A stretch of 37,975 nt of DNA from a virus (IMGVR_UViG_2695420398_000011); one strand, 5' to 3'. Positions 1,003-37,060 are shown, numbered from the stretch's first letter. Numbers and translations: made by a program. The notes: generated by a model from the letters alone, not told the origin.

Positions 1003-1007
1003 TTTAG

Positions 1008-1355: not shown

Positions 1356-1384
1356 ACCATTACCTCAATTTAGCTCAAGTAAGA

Positions 1385-2035: not shown

Positions 2036-2050
2036 GTCACCTCCCTACTA

Positions 2051-2455: not shown

Positions 2456-2530
2456 ACAAAAACCTTGACAGGTATCTTTTTTGATACCAAAATGATTTCA
2501 CGAGCTATTAGATGATCACAATATATCACT
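2456..2530. promoter_or_regulatory. Divergent lysogenic/lytic promoter-operator switch region
   Basis: 75-bp gap between divergent repressor and early operon; contains TTGACA at about 2464-2469 and AT-rich elements. Position-based inference only. Confidence 0.4.
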
Positions 2531-2737
2531 ATGAAACAAGTTCTTCACGATACCAGATCACGCATTCCGCGTAACACCGCCACAGGTCCAAGACTGGCAC
2601 TTCGGCTGTCCCTCGAGGAGCGAGCCGTCATTGATGAAATGGCAGCTAAAGAACAACGCTCATCCTCTAACATGGCGCGCATGATCTTCCTTCGCGGCCT
2701 AGAGCTAACCCAGAAAGAACAAAACAAATCTTCCTGA
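2531..2737 (+). CDS. Small ribbon-helix-helix-like regulator, first gene of early operon (Cox/Apl/Cro position)
   Basis: 68-aa ORF; predicted beta-strand followed by helices (PRLALRLSLEERAVIDEMAAKEQ) resembling Arc/CopG-type RHH proteins; position equivalent to cox/apl. Confidence 0.5.
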   Translation: MKQVLHDTRSRIPRNTATGPRLALRLSLEERAVIDEMAAKEQRSSSNMARMIFLRGLELTQKEQNKSS

Positions 2738-2753
2738 TCAGGAGGCTAATGGG

Positions 2754-2957
2754 ATGTCAGGTATAACCATCAATATCAATGTGAATGCCCCCTATGTATC
2801 CCTGCAGAAATATGCAGAGATAACAGGTATCCCTCTTAATACATGCAAAAAGATGTTGGCTGACGGTCGAATTATTATCCGACCCAAACGCGCCAAAATG
2901 GAAAAGCCTGAAGTAAACCTTGTGGCGATGTTAAAAGACGCTTTGGCTAACAGCTAA
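2754..2957 (+). CDS. Small HTH DNA-binding protein (AlpA/excisionase-like)
   Basis: 67-aa ORF with an HTH-like segment LQKYAEITGIPLNTCKKMLADGRI. Confidence 0.45.
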   Translation: MSGITININVNAPYVSLQKYAEITGIPLNTCKKMLADGRIIIRPKRAKMEKPEVNLVAMLKDALANS

Positions 2958-2978
2958 AACAATGAACAGAGCATCATC

Positions 2979-3329
2979 ATGAAAAAAAACACTAATATTC
3001 CATACTCCAAATTTCGTAATGGCGTAGAACGCCACGCTAACCGTTTCGCTATCAGTACATCACGTAGCAACACTCGCTACAGCCTGAGCGAAACACACGC
3101 TACACCTGATGGCCATCCCGTAAAACAAATTGGTGAACACACCTGGCTGATTGAGAAAGCTGGAATCGTGGTTCACAGATGCCAACGCAACCCATTTACC
3201 GGAAACCGCATTTTTGCTCTGAGCAACGGCGACAATCAGTTTGGACAGGATTTCACGTTGTACGAAGCTCTGCGCACGGTTGATCGTCTGCTGCGTGGAC
3301 AGAATTTCATTAAACAGGCTGATTTATAA
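2979..3329 (+). CDS. Hypothetical early protein
   Basis: 116-aa ORF in early operon; no recognisable domain. Confidence 0.45.
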   Translation: MKKNTNIPYSKFRNGVERHANRFAISTSRSNTRYSLSETHATPDGHPVKQIGEHTWLIEKAGIVVHRCQRNPFTGNRIFALSNGDNQFGQDFTLYEALRTVDRLLRGQNFIKQADL

Positions 3330-3339
3330 CAGGTGCTTT

Positions 3340-3618
3340 ATGACCAAAGACCATGCTCAGGGTGTATTTATCCGCTTTATTGATTTTCGCGGTGAGCTGT
3401 TGTTGCGCGCATCAGCTATTGATGGAGTGGTTCCGGTAGATAAAAGCACGGCCACTTACATTTATCTGAACGGCACACGCCTGACCGTAGAGATTCCATA
3501 TCAACCCGTATGCGAAATTATTAGCGAAGCTGAAAAAGCACGTCAGGTTAATGGCGATAAACCCTATCTCGAAATTATCTGCATGGATTCAGAAGCTGAA
3601 ATTCAGAAGGCAGATTAA
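3340..3618 (+). CDS. Hypothetical early protein
   Basis: ATG at 3340 in frame with listed ORF 3241..3618; 92 aa from this start, which avoids overlap with the upstream gene. Confidence 0.45.
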   Translation: MTKDHAQGVFIRFIDFRGELLLRASAIDGVVPVDKSTATYIYLNGTRLTVEIPYQPVCEIISEAEKARQVNGDKPYLEIICMDSEAEIQKAD

Positions 3619-3629
3619 AGGGCGTTGCG

Positions 3630-3872
3630 ATGGATAAAGAATATAAAACTCTCGTCAATAAAGCACTTGAGCGCTTTCATTTTCGCTTAAACGCATCAGG
3701 CGCTCATGCTGAACGCGCAGCCCGAGAGTCATTGACCAGAGCTATCAAGAGTATATACGACACGGCTTTTTACGTTGACGACCCGGACGCGCTCGACGAG
3801 CTTTCCGTACTCGTCTGCGCCGCAGAAAACGGGGACCATATTGAGCCATATAAACTGGGAAATATTGCATGA
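3630..3872 (+). CDS. Hypothetical early protein
   Basis: 80-aa ORF; stop overlaps the next start (ATGA). Confidence 0.45.
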   Translation: MDKEYKTLVNKALERFHFRLNASGAHAERAARESLTRAIKSIYDTAFYVDDPDALDELSVLVCAAENGDHIEPYKLGNIA

Positions 3873-3982
3873 GTATATTTATCTCATGGCTTGTTCTGAT
3901 TATTTCGGTGGCCTGCGCTATTGGGATTATGCGAATTATTAATTCAGTAAAAAAGATTGAACGCTTTTTCACTGAAGAATAA
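3869..3982 (+). CDS. Small hydrophobic membrane peptide (37 aa)
   Basis: ATG 3869 overlaps upstream stop; translation MSIFISWLVLIISVACAIGIMRIINSVKKIERFFTEE has one TM helix and a charged tail; below the ORF-track length cutoff. Confidence 0.3.
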   Translation: MSIFISWLVLIISVACAIGIMRIINSVKKIERFFTEE

Positions 3983-4068
3983 CCGCGCAAATAAGACTCC
4001 AGGTTAAATAAGAAAATGTGAAAACAATCCGCATTCGCGGAGGTATTCGCACACGCCAAGGAGGCGTA

Positions 4069-4272
4069 ATGGCAATTAAGCATTTTCCTGTCGTTCGTTT
4101 CACCTCCAGAGGACGTGAATACGAAGTTGACGAACGCCTGATTACCACAATCGACAAACACCGTTCAGAAAAGGATGCACATCACATCTATCTCACTGAC
4201 GGTACTTACTTCTGCGCCACCAACGTGGTGCAGGTGAATCTTATCAGACAGGTACAGGAGTCACGCAGATGA
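4069..4272 (+). CDS. Hypothetical early protein
   Basis: ATG 4069 preceded by AGGAGG; in frame with listed ORF 4018..4272. Confidence 0.4.
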   Translation: MAIKHFPVVRFTSRGREYEVDERLITTIDKHRSEKDAHHIYLTDGTYFCATNVVQVNLIRQVQESRR

Positions 4273-4514
4273 CCATTCTGGACTACATCGCTGCCAATCC
4301 GGGTTGTAGCGGTGGAGAAATCGCCGCAGCACTGAATACACCAACCACAACCATTAATGCGGAGCTACGCCGTCTCTGGCGCAGCGGTTCAGTCATAAGA
4401 AAAGAGCGCAAAACAGGCGGTCGCTTTTCTTATCAGGTAAACCCGATGCCGTTTGGGTGTAGCAACCCTCTAACCCAGATGTTCAACCAGCTACTGAGAG
4501 AAATCAGAGCATGA
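4269..4514 (+). CDS. Putative winged-helix DNA-binding protein
   Basis: 81-aa ORF; start overlaps upstream stop; sequence GGEIAAALNTPTTTINAELRRLWRSGSV looks like a wHTH. Confidence 0.45.
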   Translation: MTILDYIAANPGCSGGEIAAALNTPTTTINAELRRLWRSGSVIRKERKTGGRFSYQVNPMPFGCSNPLTQMFNQLLREIRA

Positions 4515-4655
4515 GCACCTCCAACTGCCGGAAACCACGTCGGGCTTCAGCAGCTCATCCGGCAGCAAAACAAACTCCGTTAATTCCTGTTCCGGGCCTT
4601 TCCTGCACCTTGCGGCAAGAGGCCTTCGCACATCTGCAACAAGAGGATTGCCGCA

Positions 4656-5021
4656 ATGATTCTCGCCGAAGACTTTTTTGATTACCTGCTGAAAACCGAG
4701 CGCGATTTTGGTATTCGCGTTCTCGACCGCTATGCAATGTATCTGAAATCACTGCCGGAACAGCAGCTCCCGGACGGCCAGATTGTTATTGACGGGCGCT
4801 ACATGGTTGGTAGCTGCCAGGAGGATTACACACTTTCCCGCATCGAAAGCGGCACGCCTTCCGTACTGGGTATTTACCTGCGAACTTCATCTCTGATTGC
4901 TGATGTAATTGCTGACAGCATTCGCATAACACACCGTTATGCCAGCACAGAGAGCACCATGCAGGAAATCCAGCGGCTGGCTACCGTCTGCCACAATGCA
5001 CTGAGCGGAAAGGCGGAGTAG
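4656..5021 (+). CDS. Hypothetical early protein
   Basis: 121-aa ORF immediately upstream of replication gene A. Confidence 0.45.
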   Translation: MILAEDFFDYLLKTERDFGIRVLDRYAMYLKSLPEQQLPDGQIVIDGRYMVGSCQEDYTLSRIESGTPSVLGIYLRTSSLIADVIADSIRITHRYASTESTMQEIQRLATVCHNALSGKAE

Positions 5022-5026
5022 TCGGC

Positions 5027-7822
5027 GTGGCAACGGAGTACATCAGAGACTGGCAACAACCACGCCATGCAGTCGGTGGCGAGGGAACGGGGGAGCCTGT
5101 CCGCCCCTCCCTTCTTTCTTCCTGGCTGGATGCCTACCGGGCAGAGAACGAGCGCCGCCAGGAAATGGCTGATGCGGCGTTCTCCGCTGCACCACTGGGC
5201 AATCTGATTAATAAAAGCCTGGACGCACAGGAAAAACAGGACAAAGCCATCACACTGGCAAGAGAAGCCAGAAAGCAGGCACGCGGTGCGGTGGATGAAG
5301 CCATGGCCTCGCTGCGTCTGCTGCCGTCCTATCTGCGTGATCCGCTTATCCGCCATCTCTCTTTCCTGCACAAAAAACAGGAATCTGGCCACCAGAAAGG
5401 CAAAAAGAACCAGCAGGCGGAACGCTATGCGAGCGGAACCCTGCGCAAAATATTCGAACGTCTGGCCCGCACCGACCGTCGCTGGCTGACTCCGGGTTAT
5501 CGCTCCCTTGCCGGACGTGAACGTCTGGACGATTTGCTGTACCTGCCACAGCTCAACAAGCACCAGATACAGACGCTGGCCGTCATGACGGCGGCAATGT
5601 TCAGCAGCACCTTCGAAAAACTCTGCGATGGCTGTGGCGCGACCGACGGCGAGCTGACCATGGATATAACGCTGAAGGCGTATCAGATGCTGGCCCGCAT
5701 GGCGTTACATCTGCACACAGTGCCGCCGCATTATGACGCACTGACAACAGACAAAGACCGGAAGAACGAACCGGACACGGAACTGCTGCCGGGTGCAATC
5801 CTCCGCCTGACCTGTGCGGACTGGTGGAAACGCAAACTGTGGCTTTTACGTTGCGAATGGAGAGAGGAACAACTCCGCGCTGCCTGTCTAGTTTCCAGAA
5901 AAACATCACCCTATCTGAGTCAGGACGCATTAAGTGAATTTCGCGCACAGCGCGAGAAAACACGCGATTTCCTGAAAAGTTTCATGCTGGAAAATGAAGA
6001 CGGGTTCACGATTGATCTCGAGACAGTGTATTACGCGGGAGTAAGTAACCCGGTCCACCGTAAGGCAGAAATGATGGCCACCATGAAGGGACTGGAACTT
6101 CTGGCCGAAGCCCGTGGCGACAGAGCGGTGTTTCTGACTGTCACCTGCCCGTCAAAATACCACGCTACAACAGAGAACGGTCATCCGAATCCCAAATGGA
6201 ACGGCGCCACCATGCGCGATTCCAGTGATTACCTGGTTAACACTTTTTTTAAGGCGGTCCGCAAAAAACTGAATCGCGACGGCCTGCGCTGGTATGGCAT
6301 CCGCACGGTGGAGCCACACCATGACGGCACCGTGCACTGGCACATGATGGTCTTTGCACATCCTGAAGAAATCGACAGCATCGTGGACATCACCCGTGAT
6401 ATTGCCATTCGCGAAGACCGCCACGAGCTGGGCAATGACATAACTCCGCGCTTTAAGGCAGAGTACGTCGACGGTTCGAAAGGTACGCCGACCAGCTACA
6501 TCGCCACCTACATCGGAAAGAACCTGGACAGCCGCGCCGTGGATGGCATTGACCCGAAAACAGGCAAGCCACGCGTTGATCACGAAACCGGAAAATCAAT
6601 GGCCGAGAGCGTGGAACGCGCCATCGGCTGGGCGCGCCTTCACCGCGTCCGCCAGTTCCAGTTCTTTGGTATCCCCTCCCGTCAGGTATGGCGTGAACTC
6701 CGCCGCCTTGCCAGTCAGATGGCCCGCAACCCGGAAGGTCCACAACGTCTGGAAAATGACGCAATGGATGCGGTACTCGCTGCCGCTGATGCCGGGTGTT
6801 TTGCCACCTACATTGAGAAACAGGGTGGCGTACTTGTTCCACGCAAGGATTACCTGATTCGCACCGCCTACGACCTCGCAGAAGAGCTGAACGATTACGG
6901 CGAGCAAAGCGTACAGATTTACGGGATCTGGTCGCCACAAATCGGGGAATCTTCCCGCGTGTGCACGCACCCGGATAACTGGAAGCTGGTAAGACGTAAA
7001 CCGGAAGCGGAAGACAGCGCCCGCGAAAATGGTTTTGACCTTCAGGGCGGCCCTGCCGCCCCTTGGACTCGTGGCAATAACTGTCCCCGTGTACAGGAAA
7101 CGGACAACAACGGGACAGAACAGCCGGAAGAACGGCCATCACCGTGGCCGCAGCTTCCTGACGGCGTTGACGTGAATGAATGGATGCGCTCACTGAAACT
7201 GCACGAACGCCGGGCGCTGATGCGTTCGCTGCGTGACAAACAGGCAAAAAACAGCAGTGATGAAATGCAGAACTGGACACAGAGCCGCAAACAGCCACGG
7301 CCTTTGCCTGATAACCACGAGTTACTCGCTAAAGAATGGCGGGAGTCTGCTGAATCTCTCGGCCTGCATATCGGTGAACAGCAGATGCAGCACCTGTTAC
7401 GGGGCGGCAGTCTGTACGTTGACGGCAGCATCATTGCACCGCAGGGATTTGAAATTGTACGCAAACCGGATACCCGCCCGGACAGCCGAATCACGCAGCT
7501 CTGGCAGCGCCTGAGCCGCAATCACGGCGTAAGCAGCACGGAGATCCGCCATAACCCGGTCGCCAGCTATCTGGAACAGCTGGGGGCATCAGACCCCGAA
7601 GCCGCCGCACGCCTGGCATCCACACTTCAGCAGGACCAGAACACCATGAAAACCCCCGTTACCGTGCTTTCTGACATGCTGCGCGCCATCCGTGACGCAG
7701 AGCACGCACAGAGAATCAGTGAAACCACTGAACGCGCCCACCGCAAAGCAGACCTGCTGCGGGGGCCTGACCAGTGGAAACAAAAAACAGACAGAAACGG
7801 GATTCACAAATCCCGTAAATGA
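5027..7822 (+). CDS. A: Rolling-circle replication initiation endonuclease (P2 gpA-like, HUH superfamily)
   Basis: 931-aa ORF with probable GTG start; HUH motif HWHMMVFAH; position at end of early operon as in P2/186. Confidence 0.85.
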   Translation: MATEYIRDWQQPRHAVGGEGTGEPVRPSLLSSWLDAYRAENERRQEMADAAFSAAPLGNLINKSLDAQEKQDKAITLAREARKQARGAVDEAMASLRLLPSYLRDPLIRHLSFLHKKQESGHQKGKKNQQAERYASGTLRKIFERLARTDRRWLTPGYRSLAGRERLDDLLYLPQLNKHQIQTLAVMTAAMFSSTFEKLCDGCGATDGELTMDITLKAYQMLARMALHLHTVPPHYDALTTDKDRKNEPDTELLPGAILRLTCADWWKRKLWLLRCEWREEQLRAACLVSRKTSPYLSQDALSEFRAQREKTRDFLKSFMLENEDGFTIDLETVYYAGVSNPVHRKAEMMATMKGLELLAEARGDRAVFLTVTCPSKYHATTENGHPNPKWNGATMRDSSDYLVNTFFKAVRKKLNRDGLRWYGIRTVEPHHDGTVHWHMMVFAHPEEIDSIVDITRDIAIREDRHELGNDITPRFKAEYVDGSKGTPTSYIATYIGKNLDSRAVDGIDPKTGKPRVDHETGKSMAESVERAIGWARLHRVRQFQFFGIPSRQVWRELRRLASQMARNPEGPQRLENDAMDAVLAAADAGCFATYIEKQGGVLVPRKDYLIRTAYDLAEELNDYGEQSVQIYGIWSPQIGESSRVCTHPDNWKLVRRKPEAEDSARENGFDLQGGPAAPWTRGNNCPRVQETDNNGTEQPEERPSPWPQLPDGVDVNEWMRSLKLHERRALMRSLRDKQAKNSSDEMQNWTQSRKQPRPLPDNHELLAKEWRESAESLGLHIGEQQMQHLLRGGSLYVDGSIIAPQGFEIVRKPDTRPDSRITQLWQRLSRNHGVSSTEIRHNPVASYLEQLGASDPEAAARLASTLQQDQNTMKTPVTVLSDMLRAIRDAEHAQRISETTERAHRKADLLRGPDQWKQKTDRNGIHKSRK

Positions 7823-7923
7823 GCAAAAAACGTGCCGCGATATATGAAGCGCGCACAAAACAGGCAAAAGCGGGATTTAAAAATCCTGTAACCGATTAAT
7901 TAATCAACATAAGGAAAAGCGAC

Positions 7924-8883
7924 ATGAAAATTTGTATCGACGACGGCTCCACCAATATCAAGCTGGCATGGACTGAGAACGGCGAACGCCGCAACGCTAT
8001 CAGCCCGAACAGCTTCAAGTCGGAATGGTCTGCGCCGTTCGGTGGCACGCAGCCCGCGAACTACATGCTTGATGGCGTGCGCTATGGTTTTGATCCGGTC
8101 AGCGATCGCTTTGTCCAGACGACCGACACGCAATACCAGTACAGCGATGTGAATGTCATTGCCATTCATCACGCGCTGGTCAAATCAGGCATCACACCAC
8201 AGGAGGTGGATGTGGTTGTCACCCTGCCACTGAGCGAGTATTTCGACACAAACGCACAGCCGGACATGGCCAACATCAACCGCAAAAAAGCGAACGTTAT
8301 GCGCCCGGTGGAGTACCAGAACGGCAAAGCATTCACTATCCGTAACGTACGGGTTATGCCTGAATCTATTCCGGCTGGCTTTAAAGCACTGGCTGACATG
8401 AGTCCGTTTGAATCCCTGCTGATTGTGGATTTAGGCGGAACCACGCTGGATGTAGCAAAGGTTCAGGGACAACTGGCAGGTATCAGCCAGGTGTTTTGCG
8501 ATCCACACGTAGGCGTTTCCCTGATGGCCGATGCAGTACTGTCGGTGATGGCCACTAACGGTATGCGTACCAGTCACCACATCGCCAATACCATTATCGA
8601 ACATCGCCATGATGAAGCCTGGCTGCGCCAGCACATCCATAATGACGCGCATTACGCCAGCCTGATGGCGGTTATTCGTGAAAAGGAAGAAACACTGAAA
8701 CAACGCGTGATCCGCGCACTGGCGGGTTTTTCGGGTTACGGGCGGGTGATGGTTGTCGGTGGCGGGGCGGAGATTGTGGCACCCGCTATCCGCGAAGCCT
8801 GCGGAGTTAATGCGACTTTCATCGCGGACGGGGGGCCACAGTTTGCTCTGGTTAATGGGCTGTACGCAATGGACAAGGAGTAA
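7924..8883 (+). CDS. parM: Actin-like segregation ATPase ParM (StbA family)
   Basis: 319-aa ORF; N-terminus MKICIDDGSTNIKLAW..ISPNSFK..YSDVNVIAIHHAL closely matches plasmid R1 ParM as recalled (MLVFIDDGSTNIKLQW..). Confidence 0.9.
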   Translation: MKICIDDGSTNIKLAWTENGERRNAISPNSFKSEWSAPFGGTQPANYMLDGVRYGFDPVSDRFVQTTDTQYQYSDVNVIAIHHALVKSGITPQEVDVVVTLPLSEYFDTNAQPDMANINRKKANVMRPVEYQNGKAFTIRNVRVMPESIPAGFKALADMSPFESLLIVDLGGTTLDVAKVQGQLAGISQVFCDPHVGVSLMADAVLSVMATNGMRTSHHIANTIIEHRHDEAWLRQHIHNDAHYASLMAVIREKEETLKQRVIRALAGFSGYGRVMVVGGGAEIVAPAIREACGVNATFIADGGPQFALVNGLYAMDKE

Positions 8884-8887
8884 ACCA

Positions 8888-9199
8888 ATGACGACTCCAA
8901 CCAGACGGATAAGTTTCTATCTGAAGCCCGCCGCCGTCAAGAACGAAGGAGAAGCATGCGCCTGGCTGGACAGCCTTACACCAGAAGCCCGCAAAAGCGG
9001 CCAACGCGTGGCTTTTCTGGCCGGGCTGGCACTTCTGAAAATGAATCCGGCAGAGGCTTACCGACTAGCTGCATGGGCTGATGATGAAGCGTTATCAGTG
9101 ACACAAACCAGGACAGAACGCCCCGCATCACAGCCAGTATCAACCGCACAGATAACCAGTCAGATGGCCGGAAATATCCGGGCGTTATTTCCTGAATAA
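8888..9199 (+). CDS. parR: ParR-like centromere-binding adaptor (StbB family)
   Basis: ATG 8888 just after parM stop; ISFYLKPAAV..CAWLDSLTPEARKSGQRVAFLAGLALL and C-terminal IRALFPE parallel R1 ParR (IAFKLNPDVN..TLDSIP..AALTAGLAL..LRSLFPKE). Confidence 0.8.
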   Translation: MTTPTRRISFYLKPAAVKNEGEACAWLDSLTPEARKSGQRVAFLAGLALLKMNPAEAYRLAAWADDEALSVTQTRTERPASQPVSTAQITSQMAGNIRALFPE

Positions 9200-9262
9200 C
9201 ACAACATCAGGGCGAGTTCGCCCTGCTCTCCACCTCAGAACATAAACAAGGAGAACGACTTA

Positions 9263-9646
9263 ATGAGCGAAATCAACTATCAGGCATTACGTGAACGTTA
9301 TTCACCTGTGCCAGTACCGAAATGCCCTATTTGCGGCGAGGAAATGTCAATTCAGCGAATATCTGGAGCACAGGTTGTTTATGCCTGCTCCGGTTATGGT
9401 GATGATGGAGATTTCAAAATTGGTCGAACTCTTGCCGACGAACATTATGAAAAATCACGCGTAACAGTGTTGGATGTCGGGGATCCTGAAGTATTGGCGC
9501 TACTTGATTGGCTGGAAACCAAAGACAACCGAATCGCTGAACTGGAAAAAATCGCCACTGACTATGCACTTAAATTCCAGAAAGCACAGGACGCATTAAA
9601 GTACGCCGCTTTGCTGCATAGCAGGACAGCGCAGCTACAAGACTAA
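9263..9646 (+). CDS. Hypothetical zinc-ribbon / coiled-coil protein
   Basis: 127-aa ORF; CPICG...YACSGYG cysteine cluster then a helical C-terminus. Confidence 0.5.
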   Translation: MSEINYQALRERYSPVPVPKCPICGEEMSIQRISGAQVVYACSGYGDDGDFKIGRTLADEHYEKSRVTVLDVGDPEVLALLDWLETKDNRIAELEKIATDYALKFQKAQDALKYAALLHSRTAQLQD

Positions 9647-22008: not shown

Positions 22009-23835
22009 ATGAGTACCACAACACGAAAATTTAAAACCATTATCACTGATACTGGTGCCAAAAAATTAGCTCAGGCAGCCGCGCCAGATGGTAATCCTGT
22101 CCGCCTGACTCACATGGCCGTGGGCGACGGTGGCGGCACGTTGCCCACACCAGACAGTAAGCAGACCCGTCTGGTGCATGAGGTGTGGCGACATACTGTT
22201 AATCGCGTCATCCTGGACGCAACACATCAGAACCGCATTATTGCGGAGCTGGTTATTCCTCCTGAAACGGGCGGATTCTGGATCCGGGAAATTGGTGTAT
22301 TTGATGAGCACGGCGATTTAATCGCGGTGGGCAATACTGCCGAAAGTTACAAACCAACCGTTGCCGAGGGGTCCGGACGTGCACAAACATTTCGCACCAT
22401 TCTGACCGTATCCAGCACTGCCACCGTGGCGCTTACCGTGGATAACACCATGGTGATGGCCACAGTGGATTACGTGAATGACAAACTGAAAGAACATGAA
22501 CAGTCACGACGTCACCCGGACGCCTCGCTGACCGCAAAAGGCTTTGTTCAACTCAGTAGCGCCACTAACAGCACGTCTGAAGCACTGGCCGCAACGCCGA
22601 AAGCGGTCAAGACAGCCTATGACCTTGCTAACGGGAAATATACCGCTCAGGACGCCACGACGGCACGAAAAGGAATAGTCCAACTCAGTAGCGCCACTAA
22701 CAGCACGTCTGAAGCACTGGCCGCAACGCCGAAAGCGGTCAAGACAGCCTATGACCTTGCTAACGGGAAATATACCGCACAGGACGCCACGACGGCACGA
22801 AAAGGAATAGTCCAGCTCAGTAGCGTCACTAACAGTGATTCTGAAACGCTTGCCGCGACTCCGAAAGCGGTGAAAGCCGCTAATGACAATGCAAACGGGC
22901 GTGTGCCCTCTGGACGTAAGGTTAATGGCAAATCACTAGCCAATGATGTCAATGTTACATCGCAGGATATTTTTAACGACCAGAGTATTGAGATTGGTGC
23001 AAATCAGAATCTGGATAATTACAAAACACCGGGGCTGTACCATCAGCCATTGAATGCCAATACAAGCGCAGCGCTGAAATACCCGGAGAATTTTGCGGGT
23101 ACACTGGTTGTGCTTAAAAATGCCGGGATAACACAGATTTACTATGTGTATGACACATCCAGAAGCTATACCCGCAGCCAGTACTCAACGGGTGACTGGA
23201 CACCATGGACGCCACAAGATTCATTTCCGGTAGGTGCGGCGATACCGTGGCCTTCTGATTCAGTGCCTACAGGCTATACCGTTATGCAGGGGCAGACTTT
23301 TGATAAAACAGTCTACCCCCTGCTTGCAGTCGCTTATCCGTCTGGTGTGATCCCTGATATGCGTGGCTGGACGATTAAGGGCAAACCCGCCAGTGGTCGG
23401 GCCGTATTATCTCAGGAACAGGACGGCATTAAATCACACTCCCACAGTGCCAGCGCGTCCAGTACGGACTTGGGGACAAAAACCACATCATCATTTGACT
23501 ACGGCACCAAGACGTCCAGTTCATTTAACCATGGCACTAAAACCACGAATAGCGCCGGGGATCATTCACACAATATTCCTGTTGGCAACACTGGCGCTGG
23601 TAATGGTGTTTCGGCTGGTTATAACTCAGGGCTTGGCACTGGAAAAACAAGTAACGCAGGGGGGCACTCTCACACAGTAAATATTGGCGCACACACTCAT
23701 ACGGTAGGAATTGGCGCACACACACACTCCGTTGCGATAGGTTCACACGGGCATACCATCACCGTTAACGCTACGGGTAACGCAGAAAACACCGTAAAAA
23801 ACATCGCATTTAACTATATTGTGAGGCTTGCATGA
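22009..23835 (+). CDS. H: Tail fibre protein (P2 gpH-like), with internal tandem repeats and His-rich tip
   Basis: 608-aa ORF; repeated [19 protein letters not shown] units; C-terminal [35 protein letters not shown] HxH repeats typical of fibre tips. Confidence 0.85.
22540..22900 (+). repeat. Tandem 132-bp in-frame repeats within the tail fibre gene
   Basis: Copies at about 22540-22671 and 22672-22803 are near-identical, followed by a diverged partial third copy. Confidence 0.8.
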
Positions 23836-31669: not shown

Positions 31670-31826
31670 AGCTTCAGCCCCTTGTATCCGTTAAATGATT
31701 CGGCAACAATCATCACCCACCACGCGCGTAATCTCACCCCTGCGCCGTTCTCCCGATTCGGCGACAACAAAAAGCAGTAACCCCTTCCGCACGCACATGC
31801 GACCATGCCGCACAGGGAGGGAACAG

Positions 31827-32936
31827 ATGACTGATACCACCATGCAATTGCTCAGTCAGGGCACAGACCCCGTGAAAATGCCGGATTTTGATATTCTCGC
31901 GGAGGGTAAAACGCTGTCCGGCGTGGCAGAGCGCCTGATGAACCTGTCACTGACCGACAACCGGGGATTTGAAGCAGACCAGCTCACCATCACGCTGGAT
32001 GATGCGGATGGTCAGTTGCAGCTACCGCCACGGGGCGCGCGCCTGACGGTTCTCATTGGCTGGAAAGGAGAACCGCTGACAGAAAAAGGCACTTACATCG
32101 TTGATGAAATCGCTCACGAGGGACCGCCGGACAGACTGACTGTTTCAGCCAGAAGCGCAGATTTTCGGGATGAATTTAACGTTAAACGTGAGGTGTCATG
32201 GCATGATGTGACCGTTGAGCGTGTGGTATCCGCCATCGCTCATCGGTACGGCCTGAAACCGCAAATCAGCGAAATGCTGATGGATATCGAAATCGACCAC
32301 GCCGACCAGACCGAAGAAAGCGACATGTCCTTCCTTACGCGCATGGCGGAAATGCTGGGCGCAATCACCACAGTAAAAAGCGGTAATCTGTTATTCATCA
32401 TGCCAGGCGGTGGCGTGAACGCACAGGGCCAGCCGTTGCCATCGTTCGCCATCACTCGCAGCAGTGGCGATCGCCATCAGTTCCGCATTGCTGACCGCGA
32501 AGCGTATACGGGGGTACGCGCTTACTGGCTTGATCTTAATTACGGGAAAAAGAAAAAAGTCAGCGTGAAACGCCGCAAACCGAAAAAAGAGAAAAGCAGC
32601 AGCCGTGAAGGTGACTATATGGAAGGTTCGGAAGGCAACGTGTTTGTGTTACGCAAAACTTATCAGAACGAACAGGCAGCAAGACGCGCAGCGGCGGCAA
32701 AGTGGCAGCAGCTACAACGCAGAGCCGCATCATTCTCCATCACACTGGCACGTGGACGCGCAGAACTCTACCCCGAAATGCATGGCACGGTGACAGGCTT
32801 CAAAAGTGACATCGACAATCAGGACTGGATTATTGCAAAAGCCGAGCACACCATTGATAACAGCGGCTTTACCACGCAGCTTGAGCTTGAGGCAAAAATC
32901 CCAGAGTGGATAGCAGAAACAGAGCGAGCAACATAG
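31827..32936 (+). CDS. D: Tail protein D / late control protein D (P2 gpD-like)
   Basis: ATG 31827 preceded by GGGAGGG; 369 aa with a Lys-rich central linker; plus strand, divergent from the FI-U block. Confidence 0.8.
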   Translation: MTDTTMQLLSQGTDPVKMPDFDILAEGKTLSGVAERLMNLSLTDNRGFEADQLTITLDDADGQLQLPPRGARLTVLIGWKGEPLTEKGTYIVDEIAHEGPPDRLTVSARSADFRDEFNVKREVSWHDVTVERVVSAIAHRYGLKPQISEMLMDIEIDHADQTEESDMSFLTRMAEMLGAITTVKSGNLLFIMPGGGVNAQGQPLPSFAITRSSGDRHQFRIADREAYTGVRAYWLDLNYGKKKKVSVKRRKPKKEKSSSREGDYMEGSEGNVFVLRKTYQNEQAARRAAAAKWQQLQRRAASFSITLARGRAELYPEMHGTVTGFKSDIDNQDWIIAKAEHTIDNSGFTTQLELEAKIPEWIAETERAT

Positions 32937-33041: not shown

Positions 33042-33509
33042 TTATTGTTTAATGGCGTTTTCTATCCATGTCGCCAAATTGTTCTTGATATCGCTATAAG
33101 CGTCGTTAAAGTTAGGTTCATATACGAGTGGTTTAATTACTCGATCGCCTCGCTTAAATGTAAATTGGTCGAAAGGATTCGGTCCTTTTGTCCCATAGCC
33201 GTTACGAGGGCATTTCAGTCGATGAATATAAATACCCACCACAGCCTTACCCTCTTTCCAGGCTCTTTCGATCTCATACTTGACCCATGGGCGATTAGCC
33301 GTTTGACTCCCGATCAGTACTACTAAGCAGGATTTGCCATTTAAGCTCTGATTAATCCAATTCTTCACGCCCTGCTCAGTTCGTTTAATTTGTTCCCAAG
33401 TATTTGGGCTAACCGGTTCATCCCCCTCCAGCACTCCCATGTTACGAATCTGCTGTACCCGCATAACATCGTTATCAAAGTGAAAGCTGTAAAATACCTT
33501 ACGTTTCAT
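33042..33509 (-). CDS. thsB: Thoeris ThsB (TIR-like domain protein)
   Basis: 155 aa; KVFYSFHFDND...CLVVLIGSQTANRPWVKYEIERA...GKAVVGIYIH...KGPNPFD parallels Bacillus ThsB (RVFFSFHYQD..CVLIGSQTFNRRWVRYEI..KGPNPFD) as recalled. Confidence 0.85.
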   Translation of the reverse strand: MKRKVFYSFHFDNDVMRVQQIRNMGVLEGDEPVSPNTWEQIKRTEQGVKNWINQSLNGKSCLVVLIGSQTANRPWVKYEIERAWKEGKAVVGIYIHRLKCPRNGYGTKGPNPFDQFTFKRGDRVIKPLVYEPNFNDAYSDIKNNLATWIENAIKQ

Positions 33510-33511
33510 AT

Positions 33512-34978
33512 CTAACCTCCTAGTTTCTTTAAAATTTCTAAAACTTTCATTTCGATATTTGCCCGATTAGCAGAGAGATCTGCAAGCTGAGCAACTTCCT
33601 TTTCCAACCAAGGGTACCGGACAAAATGTTTACTTGGATCCGTCAGCATCTCGTCAGCTAGTTCCTTGGCCATATAACCAGTGACGCCAAGTGGAAGCAC
33701 GACAACCCCTGTTTCCTGAGCAATTTGAAACTCCCTTCGGACCCCATCAGCATTAACGATTCGACCATCATGGAGTTTATTCCCAAAAAGGAATATAGCG
33801 ATTCCAGAAAGACCAATCATACGCTGCCGATATTCGTCCCATAGCTCGCTCAGGGCTTTATCGTTTGATGAGTGTTGAGGGAATGGCCGCATGATAAGTT
33901 GCTCTTCTGAGTACTTATCAGGCTTAGAATAAATGGCTTCAAGAGCTCCGTTGATGACCGCACTACCAATACCCCATCCAAACCCATTGACAACTCGATA
34001 GCCATTCTTCACCAAAGATGACGAAAGTATGTGTACAAAGTTTAGTGCTTCCTGTTTGTCCCAAGCGCCATACTCTTCTGCACTACCAGATATAAATATG
34101 GTCTTCTTGAGGAAGCGACTCTCAATCTCTTTCAATATAAGTGGAATATCATCGTACTCGTTTACTAATACAGCCTGAATGCCAAAACGGAGCAAATCGC
34201 GAATATGATGTTCTTGCCTACGCTGCCTATACATAGCGCCAGCTTCATCTTCATTTCCTTGCGGCAGAGAGGGTTCCTTACGAAGAAAGCAGTAGTGTCT
34301 ACGACGATGCTTCTCCGGAACATGCAATCGGCTCAATATGTAATCAAGATTAGGATCAGTAAAACTGAAGCCAATAAATAAGAATGTCTTAGAAATCAAA
34401 TCTCCACTCAATGCTGTAACAAACCCCTCATGGGTCTTGTAGTACTGCTCATACTGAGCTTTATAAAGTATGGCGTCACCTGGCGAGCTAACATCACCAT
34501 GCATTTTGTAAACAACAGCATCTCGTTTAGGACGAGTGGAAATAAGATCATCGGTTCTGCGTTTAATATCTGCGACACGGTAGTTTTCTTTGAGACTATC
34601 TTCAATCAAAGTGTCATAGTTGGTTGTCCAATAAGTTCTAATGGGTAGTCTAGCAAGGATTTTATGGGCTTCGGAAGGTTCCGCTTGCTCCGAGAATTCC
34701 TCTAGGATTTTTCTAGCTAAACCAGTTGAGCTGTTGTTCTTGTTGACATGGTATTGTGCAACCGAAATTAAGTCGTGCTCTAGCTCAACAGAAAGGCCTA
34801 ATTCTTCAGCAATTTCACGCAGCAGTTCACTCCAATTAACGAAGCCGCTGGTTCTAGATAGGCCCGCACCAGCAAAAACGGCGGCAACCCCTTCTTCGAG
34901 ATCCTTCACATAAGTCCTGATAAAAGCTTCAACTTCAGCCGAAAACTGAACACTCATATTTTTAGACAATCCGGTCAA
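33512..34978 (-). CDS. thsA: Thoeris ThsA (N-terminal SIR2 domain, C-terminal SLOG domain)
   Basis: 488 aa; SIR2 hallmarks FAGAGLS, TTNYD, MHGD; C-terminal FISGSAEEYG...GFGWGIGSAVINGALE typical of SLOG; directly upstream of thsB on the same strand; AT-rich. Confidence 0.85.
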   Translation of the reverse strand: MTGLSKNMSVQFSAEVEAFIRTYVKDLEEGVAAVFAGAGLSRTSGFVNWSELLREIAEELGLSVELEHDLISVAQYHVNKNNSSTGLARKILEEFSEQAEPSEAHKILARLPIRTYWTTNYDTLIEDSLKENYRVADIKRRTDDLISTRPKRDAVVYKMHGDVSSPGDAILYKAQYEQYYKTHEGFVTALSGDLISKTFLFIGFSFTDPNLDYILSRLHVPEKHRRRHYCFLRKEPSLPQGNEDEAGAMYRQRRQEHHIRDLLRFGIQAVLVNEYDDIPLILKEIESRFLKKTIFISGSAEEYGAWDKQEALNFVHILSSSLVKNGYRVVNGFGWGIGSAVINGALEAIYSKPDKYSEEQLIMRPFPQHSSNDKALSELWDEYRQRMIGLSGIAIFLFGNKLHDGRIVNADGVRREFQIAQETGVVVLPLGVTGYMAKELADEMLTDPSKHFVRYPWLEKEVAQLADLSANRANIEMKVLEILKKLGG

Positions 34979-34996
34979 AAGATAGACATAAACTTC

Positions 34997-35227
34997 TTAC
35001 CACAAACTAACCTTTGTAGTTCTATACACCGCTTTTACGCTGTGCTTTAGTATCCAAATGGATTCATTACTACTGGGGTCAGTACCTATTGAGTAAGTAG
35101 GTAGAAAGCCATTACTAGCTCCAATACTCGCTAAGTATATGAGGCAATTAGGTGGTATTTTCAAGTTCACCGAGCCTGATACAGGGCCATAGGAATAAAT
35201 AGTCACATTTTCGTAGCTCTTTTCCAC
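34997..35227 (-). CDS. Questionable small ORF upstream of thsA
   Basis: 76-aa ORF in AT-rich leader region; no domain evidence; may instead be the thsAB promoter region. Confidence 0.2.
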   Translation of the reverse strand: MEKSYENVTIYSYGPVSGSVNLKIPPNCLIYLASIGASNGFLPTYSIGTDPSSNESIWILKHSVKAVYRTTKVSLW

Positions 35228-35370
35228 TATTGGTAGTTAAATAATTACTTTCACTTTATCGCTCAAAGCGTACTCTCAGGTTTATTGCTTTTTAGTTACA
35301 TAAACCGTCAGTTAGAGTTTGTACCTGTACAACCTAGAATAACGGTAGCAACACGTTTGGGGAGGTCGCA

Positions 35371-35631
35371 ATGTTCCGTTGTCCACTTTGTGGTGCATCT
35401 GCCCGTATCCGCACCAGTCGTCCGGAAAATGATTCAAACACTGTACGACAAAAGTATTACCAGTGTAATAACTTAGAATGCGGCGTATGCTTCTCAACAC
35501 TGGAAGCTTTTCATAAGTTCACATCAAAACACACCTCCTGCGTTCACTCTTCAGGGGATATTCCGTGGCATGAGCTGCCAGCTTCACACAAGGGAAACAA
35601 TCAGATGAGTTTGCCTTTACCTCAGAATTAA
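35371..35631 (+). CDS. ogr: Zinc-finger late-gene transcription activator (Ogr/Delta family)
   Basis: 86 aa; MFRCPLCGASARIRTSR...YYQCNNLECGVCF matches the Ogr C2C2 pattern (MFHCPLC..ARTSR..YHQCQNVNCSATF) as recalled. Confidence 0.85.
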   Translation: MFRCPLCGASARIRTSRPENDSNTVRQKYYQCNNLECGVCFSTLEAFHKFTSKHTSCVHSSGDIPWHELPASHKGNNQMSLPLPQN

Positions 35632-35719
35632 CAAGCAGAATTGCCGGAGTAGCAAAAAAGCGATAGATTACGCGCGGGTGCCTTTCGGCTGATGGTCGGA
35701 GGGAATACCCGAAGGCCAG

Positions 35720-35956
35720 ATGTGGAAAGGCCCCGGAAAAACATCTCTGTTTAACCGAGGCCCTAACCGCATTACCTTGACAAGTGAAAGGTTAGCGCCT
35801 CTCCGGAAAAGGAGCAAGTGCTATGTCGCAAAAATCGCTTACGGCCATCACGTTCTGCGTGACGGCAATCCTCATCATCTGGATGCTGCACGGTTCGCTG
35901 TGCGAAATACGGATGAGCTTCTGGGGAGCGGAGTTTGCGGCGTTCTTACAGTGTAA
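35720..35956 (+). CDS. mok-like overlapping reading frame of the hok-like locus
   Basis: 78-aa ORF in a different frame that starts upstream of and spans the hok-like ORF, as in hok/mok/sok loci. Confidence 0.35.
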   Translation: MWKGPGKTSLFNRGPNRITLTSERLAPLRKRSKCYVAKIAYGHHVLRDGNPHHLDAARFAVRNTDELLGSGVCGVLTV

Positions 35957-35963
35957 GCAGTAA
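35823..35963 (+). CDS. Hok/Gef-family type I toxin (small membrane peptide)
   Basis: 46-aa ORF MSQKSLTAITFCVTAILIIWMLHGSLCEIRMSFWGAEFAAFLQCKQ; TM helix plus conserved SLCEI(R) and AAF motifs of Hok proteins; structured 5' leader; 3' hairpin at about 35975-35995. Confidence 0.7.
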   Translation: MSQKSLTAITFCVTAILIIWMLHGSLCEIRMSFWGAEFAAFLQCKQ

Positions 35964-36049
35964 GGAAACCGCGACGGGGGAGCAATCCCCCGTCAATCGG
36001 TTGCCAAGGTAAGGTCGATAAGGCACCCTATCTCATAGAGATGAATAAC

Positions 36050-36085
36050 AAACCCGCAGCGTAAAAACTGCGGGGTTTCTTTTTG
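36050..36085 (+). terminator. Rho-independent terminator
   Basis: Stem CCCGCAG / CTGCGGG with 8-nt loop followed by a T-run (TTTCTTTTT). Confidence 0.5.
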
Positions 36086-36152
36086 GAACTCTCACTAGCT
36101 AGTGTACCGTTAGCGGCACATAATGCTCGCACAACAAACCAGTTAAAAGAGA

Positions 36153-36548
36153 TTACTCAGCATTCTCCTGCTTCCATTGCCGGATCATTTCATCGGTAAC
36201 ATCACTCTCATAACATACCACGTCATACCCTCCAGTACGGCTATATGCACTGCGTCCACCACATCTACTACCATTCCTTGCATGATTATAAGGACACGCA
36301 CAATTGCCTGGATAAGATTCAATGGATTCTTTAATTATTTCTTTCTTGATCTGAGCATCTGACTTTCCTTTTGCTGCATACCCACTAAAAGATACCAAAC
36401 AAAGGCAGATTGCCATTAATAAACCACATCGCATACCGATACACTCTATTACTAACCAATCATAGCCCACATCATAAAATCGAGATGAGGAGTACAACAC
36501 CTTTAACAAGAAGGTGCCATCACGATAATATGTCGTGCAATTCATCAA
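36153..36548 (-). CDS. Hypothetical Cys-rich protein with internal signal-peptide-like segment
   Basis: 131-aa ORF (possible true start at internal Met giving about 93 aa with leader MRCGLLMAICLCLVSFSGYA); AT-rich. Confidence 0.4.
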   Translation of the reverse strand: MMNCTTYYRDGTFLLKVLYSSSRFYDVGYDWLVIECIGMRCGLLMAICLCLVSFSGYAAKGKSDAQIKKEIIKESIESYPGNCACPYNHARNGSRCGGRSAYSRTGGYDVVCYESDVTDEMIRQWKQENAE

Positions 36549-36906
36549 AAAAAAGATCTATATCAAAGAGATAGAGTTATTATCAGTGCTGCAGACATCA
36601 GCATTCGAGGCAGCAGAAAAACAGTTAATCTAACGAATTTGTATTTTCTCAGGATGTTGTCAGATTAAAAAAGATAGATTAGCGCAGACACCTTTTGGCG
36701 GGTGGTAGGAGGAAAAATGAAGTTGAGTGGGAAGATCCCAGAAAAAATTTTGATTTAACCAAGGCCCTAGTTCAACATGCGAAATACAGATTAGTTGCAG
36801 GAGAGTTCTGCTTCACGCTTAGAGCTTCAACAGACGTGCACTATCATTGTTTCTGCATATCGCCACATCATCGCCACTTTACCGCCATTGCACAAAATAC
36901 AAATAC

Positions 36907-36930
36907 AAAAAAACCACCCGAAGGTGGTTT
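36907..36930 (-). terminator. Rho-independent terminator of the tRNA operon
   Basis: On the minus strand: AACCACC-TTCG-GGTGGTT followed by a T-run, immediately 3' of tRNA-Leu. Confidence 0.6.
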
Positions 36931-36973
36931 CACGACACTGCTTATTGCTTTGATTTTATTCTTATCTTTCCCA

Positions 36974-37060
36974 TGGTACCCGGAGCGGGACTTGAACCCG
37001 CACAGCGCGAACGCCGAGGGATTTTAAATCCCTTGTGTCTACCGATTCCACCATCCGGGC
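36974..37060 (-). tRNA. leuZ: tRNA-Leu (anticodon UAA)
   Basis: 87-nt sequence matching E. coli leuZ as recalled; anticodon loop TTTAAAA in tRNA sense; 3' CCA encoded. Confidence 0.9.

What the first reader, a model, noticed from the sequence alone, without database searches (positions are those of the whole stretch)
35640..36900. hok/mok-like type I toxin locus plus a second, degenerate copy of its leader
After ogr there is a 46-aa Hok-family ORF with an overlapping mok-like frame, a structured leader, and 3' hairpins. About 1 kb further on, the leader pattern recurs: a short ORF (ATGAAGTTGAGTGGGAAGATCCCAGAAAAAATTTTGATTTAA, about 36718-36759) followed by TTTAACCAAGGCCCTA at 36764-36779, paralleling ATGTGGAAAGGCCCCGG...TTTAACCGAGGCCCTA at about 35749-35764 in the intact locus. 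No intact toxin ORF follows the second copy, so it may be a decayed paralog or an RNA element. The antisense Sok-like RNA is not annotated.
Basis: partly seen in the sequence, partly recalled or inferred. Interest (0 to 1): 0.45.

Follow-up and report, generated by a model that had tools for sequence, protein, structure and literature searches.

The report
Intact prophage hok toxin plus dead copy
At the end of a P2-like prophage sitting in the E. coli leuZ tRNA gene there is one intact, ordinary Hok/Sok-type toxin-antisense RNA locus and, 1 kb further on, the decayed wreck of a second one; this is an already familiar kind of element.

Summary
Window 35641-36085 is a complete hok/sok-type type I toxin-antitoxin locus. 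It has a promoter and a ~407-nt mRNA predicted to close on itself by 5'-3' (tac/fbi) pairing. It encodes a 46-aa Hok (Pfam PF01848) and ends in a 3' hairpin and a terminator. A promoter for a ~60-nt Sok-like RNA lies on the minus strand.

This locus type is in 1535 of 5426 complete E. coli genomes, with its ORF annotated 'Hok/Gef family protein' in the records listed, and in P2-like phages (P88, Chuche, PhiR44_2). It is 81% identical to a locus beside lom in Stx phages.

The second copy (36656-36833) is a true homologue (BLAST E 1e-10), and it holds more than a leader. The leader homology stops at 36769. From 36770 the sequence aligns with hok codons 24-46. So it is a hok locus with a 127-nt internal deletion that removed the sok promoter, the hok ribosome site and the N-terminal half of hok. 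It also has a frameshift and no 3' UTR. It shows no predicted fold, is the most diverged block of the region, and is truncated the same way in every relative examined. It is a pseudogene-like remnant beside attP.

The 78-aa 'mok-like' ORF is not conserved. Novelty and interest are low.

The parts
35641..35669 (+). Predicted hok mRNA promoter: -35 TTGCCG (35641-35646), a 17-nt spacer, then -10 TAGATT (35664-35669).
   Evidence: Read from the sequence. The start of Rfam model RF01794 falls at 35676, 7 nt after the -10. The simple consensus scan did not list it because it is below 9/12 matches.
35676..36085 (+). Predicted full-length hok mRNA (~407 nt) with these boxes: tac 35676-35690; ucb 35725-35734; GAGG box 35757-35761; dcb 35797-35804; hok SD AAGGAG 35809-35814; 3' hairpin 35972-35995; fbi 36020-36028; terminator 36053-36074 plus T-run.
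   Evidence: The MFE is -181.2 kcal/mol (z = -9.0) with nt 1-15 paired to the 3' region. Across 9 homologues 93.8% of cells are paired and 6 pairs show compensatory changes; the tac/fbi helix is 97% paired. In the full-length folds, tac/fbi, ucb/GAGG and dcb/SD pairings are predicted in 9/9 homologues. The tac/ucb plus GAGG/dcb switch is predicted in 6/9 after 3' trimming.
35823..35963 (+). hok: 46-aa membrane toxin gene (MSQKSLTAITFCVTAILIIWMLHGSLCEIRMSFWGAEFAAFLQCKQ).
   Evidence: Pfam PF01848 at 29.9 bits against a cut-off of 22; PHROG 251, E 1e-22. RefSeq annotates it 'Hok/Gef family protein'. The protein is 45-46/46 identical in 7 related loci and 34/46 identical in VT2-Sakai.
35720..35956 (+). 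It is probably an allele-specific extension of a short leader ORF that starts at the conserved AUG at 35720.
   Evidence: Listed. In 8 homologues the same ATG gives only 8-24 codons and stops before hok. In 6 of 9 loci no ATG, GTG or TTG start lies in a frame overlapping the hok ATG.
35718..35817 (-). Predicted Sok-like antisense gene. Promoter -35 TTGCTC (35817..35812), 17-nt spacer, -10 TAACCT (35794..35789). The RNA runs from about 35782 down to about 35720.
   Evidence: Read from the sequence. The hexamers are invariant in 9 homologues, although this is confounded by the overlap with the hok SD. The RNA folds as an 11-nt single-stranded 5' tail plus a long hairpin and a U-rich tail: -28.3 kcal/mol, z = -4.5. 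Expression was not tested.
36153..36434 (-). orf93, a small protein gene of unknown function between the two hok copies. It is cargo and not part of the TA locus.
   Evidence: RefSeq hypothetical protein WP_071527557.1. PHROG 27544, E 1e-58, unknown function. No Pfam or NCBIfam hit. It is 97-99% conserved among variants.
36656..36769 (+). hok remnant, part 1: promoter-like hexamers (TTGTCA 36657-36662, TAGATT 36675-36680, only 12 nt apart) and the first ~83 nt of a hok leader (36687-36769).
   Evidence: Alignment to 35641-35765: (E 1e-10), with a 5-nt gap in the promoter spacer. The leader is 76-80% identical in the three most diverged variants (94-95% in the two closer ones), against 90-98% for the same stretch of the intact copy. 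Its fold is no better than shuffles (z +0.19; antisense z +0.65).
36770..36833 (+). hok remnant, part 2: decayed hok codons 24-46 (TGCGAAATAC encodes CEI plus the first base of the next codon, the CEIR motif) joined directly to the leader. This implies a 127-nt deletion equivalent to 35766-35892, plus a 4-nt frameshifting deletion. Homology ends at the position of the hok stop codon.
   Evidence: Local alignment to 35893-35960. The score is 26.5 in the 55989, O157 and PapRG variants and 16 in the window allele, against 9.2 +/- 1.3 for 1000 dinucleotide shuffles; 0/1000 shuffles reach the observed score.
36834..37028 (.). attP/attR. The probable P arm (36834-36902) carries ATCGCCAC twice (36859 and 36870). 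It is followed by a phage-borne 126-bp copy of the leuZ terminator and the 3' half of tRNA-Leu(UAA) (36903-37028).
   Evidence: Three-way alignment of the empty site, attL and attR. The attL sequence has the same ATCGCCAC motif next to int. The motif count is 7 against 1.4 expected. Chromosomal homology starts at about 36903 in genomes without the prophage. tRNAs are.

Best explanation
The window is an E. coli chromosome segment. It carries a P2-like (Xuanwuvirus-type) prophage integrated in the anticodon loop of leuZ. Between ogr and attP the phage carries three items: an intact hok/sok-type type I toxin-antitoxin locus, a small gene of unknown function, and a dead second hok locus.

Intact locus. 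These steps are inferred from sequence, predicted folds and conservation, and follow the plasmid R1 paradigm.
1. A stable ~407-nt hok mRNA is made from 35676.
2. It is kept untranslatable because its 5' end (tac) pairs with a 3' element (fbi, 36020-36028), and because the hok SD and AUG sit in a local hairpin with the dcb strand.
3. Slow 3' trimming back to the 35972-35995 hairpin lets tac re-pair with ucb and lets the GAGG box re-pair with dcb. This exposes the hairpin targeted by the antisense RNA.
4. A short-lived ~60-nt Sok-like RNA is transcribed from the minus strand (about 35782 down to about 35720). It binds through its 11-nt 5' tail, and the duplex is degraded.
5. If Sok synthesis stops (prophage loss, host shut-off by an infecting phage, or induction), Hok is made and damages the inner membrane.

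Second copy (36656-36833). It is a non-functional remnant of a closely related hok locus. A 127-nt deletion removed the sok promoter, the Sok 5'-tail target, the hok SD and codons 1-23. The remaining toxin codons are frameshifted. The 3' UTR, fbi and terminator are absent. The promoter spacer is 5 nt too short. The deletion predates the split of the leuZ-integrating phage lineage, and the remnant has since drifted.
For: Context:
- The window is 100% identical to E. coli F2_407_2_2 over 35300-37000.
- The empty yecA-leuZ site, attL and attR define a 126-bp duplication.
- Integrase, gpD and ogr are present.

Intact locus:
- Pfam HOK_GEF above its cut-off; Rfam RF01794, E 7e-9.
- The closed 5'-3' fold has z = -9.
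- 93.8% of cells are paired and 6 pairs are compensatory across 9 loci, against 37-44% paired when partners are slid.
- The conformational switch is predicted in 6/9 loci.
- The Sok-like RNA fold has z = -4.5.
- The regulatory scheme matches the R1 model as described in PMC9841398.
- The locus type is present in 1535 of 5426 complete E. coli genomes and in P2-like and Stx phages.

Remnant:
- Two collinear homology blocks abut at 36769/36770.
- All 5 chromosomal variants and 13 IMG/VR contigs have the same truncated form.
- It is 76-83% identical in the three most diverged variants, where the flanks are 89-97% and the intact copy's counterpart is 95-98%.
- It has no fold signal.
- The ATG of its 13-codon ORF is ATA in the O157 variant.
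Against: - No expression data exist for any RNA here. The Sok-like transcript, the 3' processing and Hok toxicity are inferred from sequence.
- The Rfam score is below the family's gathering threshold (47.6 against 59).
- The mok frame, required for hok translation in R1, is not conserved in this clade. The translation-control step may therefore differ from the paradigm.
- In the 3'-trimmed folds the hok SD is not clearly freed.
- The 31 nt of promoter-like sequence of the remnant (36656-36686) are 97-100% conserved among variants. Pure drift would not predict this, but the upstream flank is also 92-97% conserved.
Confidence: 0.88

Rival explanations
1. The second copy is a functional RNA element. 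Either a small RNA is transcribed from the retained hok promoter and leader, for example as a decoy that titrates Sok-like RNA, or an antisense Sok-only 'anti-addiction' gene is present.
For: The promoter-like 31 nt (36656-36686) are 97-100% identical among otherwise diverged variants. The remnant is retained in all 643 genomes that carry this region.
Against: - The -35/-10 spacing is 12 nt because of a 5-nt deletion, and no promoter-like site was found on either strand there.
- The sok promoter and the Sok 5'-tail target lie inside the 127-nt deletion.
- Neither strand folds better than shuffles (z +0.19 and +0.65).
- The consensus fold is only -14 kcal/mol for ~155 nt.
- The transcribed part is the most diverged block of the region.
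- Only about 34/44 positions match the Sok-complementary stretch of copy 1 (counted by eye on the alignments).
Confidence: 0.05
2. The second copy persists because it has been co-opted as part of attP, for example as binding sites for Int, IHF or the excisionase. It would then be DNA-level functional rather than a neutral remnant.
For: It lies immediately next to the probable P arm, which has ATCGCCAC repeats at 36859 and 36870 and the same motif in the P' arm. It is always found with this att/int module.
Against: It lies 200-370 bp from the crossover point at about 37028, beyond the putative arm sites. Its sequence is the least conserved of the region, whereas 36834-36902 is 89-96% identical. 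No repeated arm motif occurs inside it.
Confidence: 0.05
3. The resemblance of the second copy to the hok leader is a chance motif match.
For: the repeat finder did not report the pair. Rfam's model did not hit the second copy at E <= 1.
Against: BLAST E 1e-10 and nhmmer E 7e-6 within the window. A second collinear block was unmatched by 1000 shuffles. The repeat finder miss is explained by indels, because that tool extends seeds without gaps.
Confidence: 0.01

Closest known systems
hok/mok/sok (parB) of plasmid R1, the type I toxin-antitoxin paradigm (described in PMC9841398)
   Same: - A small Hok-family membrane toxin.
- An mRNA of ~400 nt closed by tac/fbi pairing.
- ucb, GAGG and dcb boxes in the same order.
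- A stable 3' hairpin.
- A minus-strand promoter laid out as I recall it for R1 (-35, 17 nt, -10), driving a ~60-nt antisense RNA with a single-stranded 5' tail and one hairpin.
   Different: - The toxin is 46 aa rather than 52 aa.
- The mok reading frame is not conserved. No start codon follows the GAGG box in any of the 9 homologues, and 6 of 9 lack a start in any frame overlapping hok.
- The locus sits in a prophage next to attP, not on a plasmid.
- The Rfam score is below gathering.
hokW-sokW of Stx2 prophage Sp5 (PMC8621323)
   Same: It is a prophage-borne Hok-family type I TA system. PHROG 251, which our Hok matches, is labelled 'MokW-like host killing'.
   Different: It is a different locus. 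By the paper's primers, the characterised HokW starts MKQQKAM and ends DYESEK. Ours starts MSQKSL and ends LQCKQ. The 81%-identical relative in VT2-Sakai is a separate, unnamed locus beside lom (44532-44906). The experimental results on hokW therefore cannot simply be transferred.
Inactivated chromosomal hok loci of E. coli K-12 (hokA-E, disrupted by IS elements, rearrangements or point mutations; Pedersen & Gerdes 1999, recalled from memory, not read here)
   Same: The second copy is likewise a hok locus that has lost toxin expression and persists as a remnant.
   Different: Here the lesion is a clean 127-nt internal deletion plus loss of the 3' UTR. The remnant sits in a phage genome beside an intact paralog.
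Cargo ('moron') slots of P2-like phages
   Same: The hok locus and what follows it occupy the variable slot between ogr and attP. Chuche has com plus a methyltransferase there, and PhiR44_2 and P88 have other small genes. A Thoeris system sits between gpD and ogr.
   Different: Nothing unusual. This slot simply holds orf93 plus a dead hok copy in the leuZ-integrating lineage.

Membership tests
Hok/Gef type I toxin-antitoxin (hok/sok) - intact copy 35641-36085 | Small hydrophobic toxin matching the Hok/Gef profile | tested here: met
   PF01848 at 29.9 bits against a gathering score of 22, E 4e-7. PHROG 251, E 1e-22. The NCBIfam HokA equivalog scores only 34 bits against a cut-off of 89, so it is Hok-family but not HokA.
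Hok/Gef type I toxin-antitoxin (hok/sok) - intact copy 35641-36085 | Leader matching the curated hok/sok RNA model (Rfam RF01794) | tested here: inconclusive
   The full-length model match 1-157 at 35676-35836 scores 47.6 bits (E 7e-9), below the gathering score of 59.
Hok/Gef type I toxin-antitoxin (hok/sok) - intact copy 35641-36085 | Long-range 5'-3' (tac/fbi) pairing that closes the full-length mRNA | tested here: met
   A 15-bp helix between nt 1-15 and the 36008-36028 region is in the MFE. It is 97% paired over 9 homologues with only G-C to G-U changes, and it is predicted in 9/9 homologues. This rests on prediction and conservation, not experiment.
Hok/Gef type I toxin-antitoxin (hok/sok) - intact copy 35641-36085 | Refolding after 3' processing (tac/ucb and SD-box/dcb stems) | tested here: inconclusive
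   The switch appears in the MFE of the 3'-trimmed RNA in the window and in 6 of 9 homologues. The arms are invariant, so there is no covariation evidence, and the real processing site is unknown.
Hok/Gef type I toxin-antitoxin (hok/sok) - intact copy 35641-36085 | mok: a leader ORF overlapping hok whose translation is needed for hok translation | tested here: not met
   A 78-aa overlapping ORF exists in the window only because of an extra A. In 6 of 9 homologues there is no ATG, GTG or TTG in a frame overlapping the hok ATG. The conserved AUG at 35720 gives ORFs of 8-24 codons that stop before hok. Non-canonical starts are not excluded.
Hok/Gef type I toxin-antitoxin (hok/sok) - intact copy 35641-36085 | cis-encoded antisense Sok RNA with its own promoter, a single-stranded 5' tail and a terminator hairpin | tested here: inconclusive
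   TTGCTC-17-TAACCT lies on the minus strand, and the hexamers are invariant in 9 loci. The predicted RNA has an 11-nt tail and a hairpin, z = -4.5. The promoter falls below the 9/12 threshold of the consensus scan. No transcript data are available.
Hok/Gef type I toxin-antitoxin (hok/sok) - intact copy 35641-36085 | Toxicity of Hok and neutralisation by Sok | not testable with these tools
   Requires expression experiments.
Hok/Gef type I toxin-antitoxin (hok/sok) - second copy 36656-36833 as a functional locus | Intact toxin ORF with SD, a sok promoter and fbi/3' UTR | tested here: not met
   A 127-nt deletion covers the sok promoter, the SD and codons 1-23. There is a 4-nt frameshift, and homology ends at the hok stop codon. 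No Rfam hit and no fold signal.
hokW-sokW of prophage Sp5 (orthology) | Same toxin as the characterised HokW (51 aa) | tested here: not met
   The primers in PMC8621323 encode MKQQKAM... and ...DYESEK. The protein here is MSQKSL...LQCKQ, 46 aa.

The most novel reading that the evidence does not exclude
This P2-phage/lom-adjacent Hok clade works without mok. The GAGG box, which is the mok ribosome site in R1, has no start codon behind it. Instead it may act purely as an RNA switch element. It would be held by ucb in the full-length mRNA and would capture the dcb/anti-SD strand after 3' trimming. The Sok-like RNA would then control hok directly, by blocking that switch and by duplex cleavage rather than by blocking translation of a leader ORF. 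The hypervariable loop (35766-35785), opposite the Sok 5' tail, would set pair specificity between co-resident hok loci.
Probability: 0.3. Interest if true: 0.35.

Novelty: new member of a known kind. Interest (0 to 1): 0.15.

Why it matters
It matters little beyond annotation.

- The intact locus is a common, already annotated Hok-family gene. Placing its unannotated Sok-like RNA and mRNA boxes would improve annotation of P2-like prophages.
- Recognising the second copy as a deleted hok remnant prevents it being mistaken for a small ORF or a new sRNA.
- The remnant documents decay of a type I TA locus inside a phage cargo slot next to attP.
- The one point of modest biological interest is that the mok frame is not conserved in this clade, so hok translation control may differ from the R1 paradigm.

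Tried and rejected
- The repeat finder did not report the copy pair, because it extends seeds without gaps and the copies differ by indels.
- Rfam at E <= 1 gave nothing on the second copy.
- A distant BLAST of 36100-36905 against 50,697 phage records gave no match. Isolated phages with this att module are not in that collection. IMG/VR contigs supplied them instead.
- I looked for an intact relative of the second copy, among E. coli variants down to 83% identity and among 13 IMG/VR contigs. All carry the same truncated form.
- I considered that 36090-36902 might be a chromosomal island or the leftover of an earlier element rather than part of this prophage. I rejected this because chromosomal homology starts only at about 36903, the phage-borne leuZ copy follows directly, and the same order recurs in diverged prophages.
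- orf93 shows no similarity to the gene that follows hok in VT2-Sakai. It has no Pfam, NCBIfam or PADLOC hit.
- I first took the locus for an orthologue of the published hokW. The paper's primers show it is a different locus.
- The idea that 3' trimming frees the hok SD is not robust in the folds, so I do not claim it.

Full report
**Context**

The right end of the window is E. coli chromosome. It contains pgsA and the tRNA genes glyW, cysT and leuZ on the minus strand. The stretch 35300-37000 is 100% identical to E. coli strain F2_407_2_2.

To the left of about 36903 lies a P2-like prophage. Its parts, in order:
- integrase, 1-1002
- gpD, 31695-32936
- a Thoeris ThsB/ThsA pair, 33042-34978
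- ogr, 35371-35631

Genomes without the prophage have yecA directly followed by leuZ, and their homology to the window begins at about 36903-36905. I aligned the empty site, attL and attR. The alignment shows that the phage carries a 126-bp copy of the leuZ terminator and of the 3' half of leuZ (36903-37028). The crossover lies in the anticodon loop. Everything between ogr and 36902 is therefore phage DNA next to attP. The octamer ATCGCCAC occurs twice at 36859-36877 and once next to int in attL. These are probably integrase arm sites, which is an inference.

**The intact locus**

The 46-aa ORF at 35823-35963 passes the Pfam Hok/Gef threshold, and RefSeq annotates it as Hok/Gef.

Upstream, TTGCCG-17 nt-TAGATT (35641-35669) is followed 7 nt later by GGGUGCC at 35676. 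That is where the Rfam hok/sok leader model begins its full-length match (47.6 bits, E 7e-9, below the gathering score of 59).

The 407-nt RNA from 35676 to the terminator (36053-36074 plus T-run) folds at -181 kcal/mol (z = -9). Its first 15 nt pair with the 36008-36028 region. This is the tac/fbi closure that defines hok mRNAs, as described in PMC9841398.

I counted this structure on nine homologous loci: four other leuZ prophages, phages P88, Chuche and PhiR44_2, and a locus beside lom in VT2-Sakai.
- 93.8% of cells are paired, against 37-44% when partners are slid.
- Six pairs show compensatory changes. Two are in the 35972-35995 hairpin. Three are in a long-range helix between the Sok-target region and the 3' UTR.

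If the RNA is trimmed back to the 35972-35995 hairpin, the 5' end re-pairs with GAAAGGCCCC (35725-34) and GAGGC (35757-61) re-pairs with GCCUC (35797-801). This is seen in the window and in 6 of 9 homologues. It parallels the tac/ucb and SD/dcb stems of R1.

On the minus strand, TTGCTC-17 nt-TAACCT (35817..35789) has the same layout that I recall for the R1 sok promoter. The RNA it would make (about 35782 down to about 35720) has an 11-nt free 5' tail, a long hairpin and a U-rich end, with z = -4.5. No RNA gene is annotated there.

This locus type is in 1535 of 5426 complete E. coli genomes.

**The mok frame**

It exists only because this allele has five A residues at 35737-41 where all eight other loci have four.
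- In those eight loci the same ATG gives 8-24 codons that stop before hok.
- In 6 of 9 loci no ATG, GTG or TTG lies in any frame that overlaps the hok start.
- No start codon follows the GAGG box, which is where mok starts in R1.

The mok feature of the family is therefore not met as a conserved element. How hok translation is switched on in this clade remains open.

**The published hokW**

Phage annotations call the protein 'MokW-like' (PHROG 251). The experimentally studied hokW of Sp5 encodes MKQQKAM...DYESEK, judging by the paper's primers (PMC8621323). It is therefore a different locus from the 81%-identical relative beside lom.

**The second copy**

The pairwise match 35656-35765 against 36667-36769 is 78/110 identities (E 1e-10). 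It includes the promoter hexamers, but with a 5-nt gap in the spacer, leaving 12 nt.

The decisive observation came from diverged alleles of the same region in E. coli 55989, PapRG-04-4, 90-9280, 47258 and O157:H7. Immediately after the leader homology ends at 36769, the sequence aligns with hok codons 24-46 (35893-35960).
- In the 55989, O157 and PapRG alleles the local score is 26.5.
- In the window allele it is 16.
- In 1000 dinucleotide shuffles it is 9.2 +/- 1.3, and none reaches the observed value.

TGCGAAATAC, which encodes the CEIR motif, is intact.

The second copy is thus a hok locus with a 127-nt internal deletion. The deletion is equivalent to 35766-35892 and removed the Sok 5'-tail target, the sok promoter, dcb, the hok SD and codons 1-23. 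The copy also has a 4-nt frameshifting gap. Its homology stops at the hok stop codon, so the 3' hairpin, fbi and terminator are missing.

Further evidence that the copy is dead:
- Neither strand folds better than shuffles (z +0.19 and +0.65), whereas the counterparts in copy 1 give -2.7 and -4.5.
- RNAalifold on nine alleles gives only -14 kcal/mol.
- Against the three most diverged variants (55989, PapRG, O157), the block 36687-36833 is 76-83% identical. It is the most diverged block of the region in four of the five variants compared. Against the same three, orf93 is 97%, the flanks are 89-96%, and the homologous leader stretch of the intact copy is 95-98% where it is present.
- All 5 chromosomal variants and 13 IMG/VR contigs carry the same truncated form, as do the 618 of 643 genomes whose match covers at least 80% of the query. 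So the deletion is old.

The remnant is closer to the P2-type locus (78-81% in the leader) than to the Stx-phage type (about 70%). It therefore derives from the same subfamily.

**Why it is there**

In related P2-like phages the stretch between the hok locus and attP/int is a variable cargo slot. Chuche has com plus a methyltransferase there. PhiR44_2 and P88 have other small genes. In the leuZ-integrating lineage this slot holds orf93 (PHROG 27544, function unknown) and the dead hok copy.

I see no evidence for a present function of the remnant. One oddity is that its 31-nt promoter-like part is 97-100% conserved. The neighbouring upstream flank is also 92-97% conserved, so this is weak evidence.

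**Verdict**

The thing is ordinary: a known kind of type I toxin-antitoxin locus in a known kind of prophage cargo position, plus a pseudogene-like remnant of a second copy.

The only mildly interesting point is the lack of a conserved mok frame in this clade.

Interest is 0.15.

Noticed in passing
window 33042-34978 (- strand): A type I Thoeris defence pair sits between gpD and ogr. ThsA is a SIR2-STALD/SLOG protein of 488 aa (PADLOC ThsA1, E 6e-203). ThsB is a TIR protein of 155 aa (PADLOC ThsB1, E 3e-70). Related phages (Chuche, PhiR44_2) go straight from gpD to ogr.
   Followed up: partly
window 35766-35785, compared with L003, L006-L011 and L013: A ~20-nt patch is hypervariable among alleles whose surrounding leader is otherwise nearly invariant. 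It is the loop of the predicted Sok-target hairpin and lies opposite the Sok 5' tail. This may reflect diversification of hok/sok pair specificity.
   Followed up: partly
window 36903-37028 and L005 1040-1170: The prophage carries a 126-bp copy of the leuZ terminator plus the 3' half of tRNA-Leu(UAA). Integration in the anticodon loop therefore restores the tRNA. ATCGCCAC repeats at 36859 and 36870, and one copy near int, look like integrase arm sites.
   Followed up: partly
window 36153-36434 (- strand): orf93 is a conserved small protein with a hydrophobic N-terminus and a Cys-rich C-terminal part. It matches PHROG 27544 (unknown function) and has no Pfam, NCBIfam or PADLOC match. It is always found between the two hok copies.
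   Followed up: partly
L013 (VT2-Sakai 44532-44906) and PMC8621323: Stx2 phage Sp5 has a second hok locus beside lom. It is unnamed in that record and distinct from the published hokW. The 'MokW-like' label in phage annotations is applied to this other clade.
   Followed up: partly
window 22518-22913: There are three tandem copies of a 132-nt unit (100%, 91% and 69% identity to the reference copy) inside the 608-aa ORF at 22009-23835. That ORF is presumably a tail-fibre gene.
   Followed up: no
window 34997-35227 (- strand): A 76-aa ORF with no Pfam hit lies between ThsA and ogr. Its status is unknown.
   Followed up: no
L002 (O157:H7 BB24-1) 1027-2600: In O157:H7 the leuZ prophage is degraded. 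gpD is truncated by an IS30 insertion, and ogr and the intact hok are missing. orf93 and the hok remnant are still present next to leuZ.
   Followed up: no
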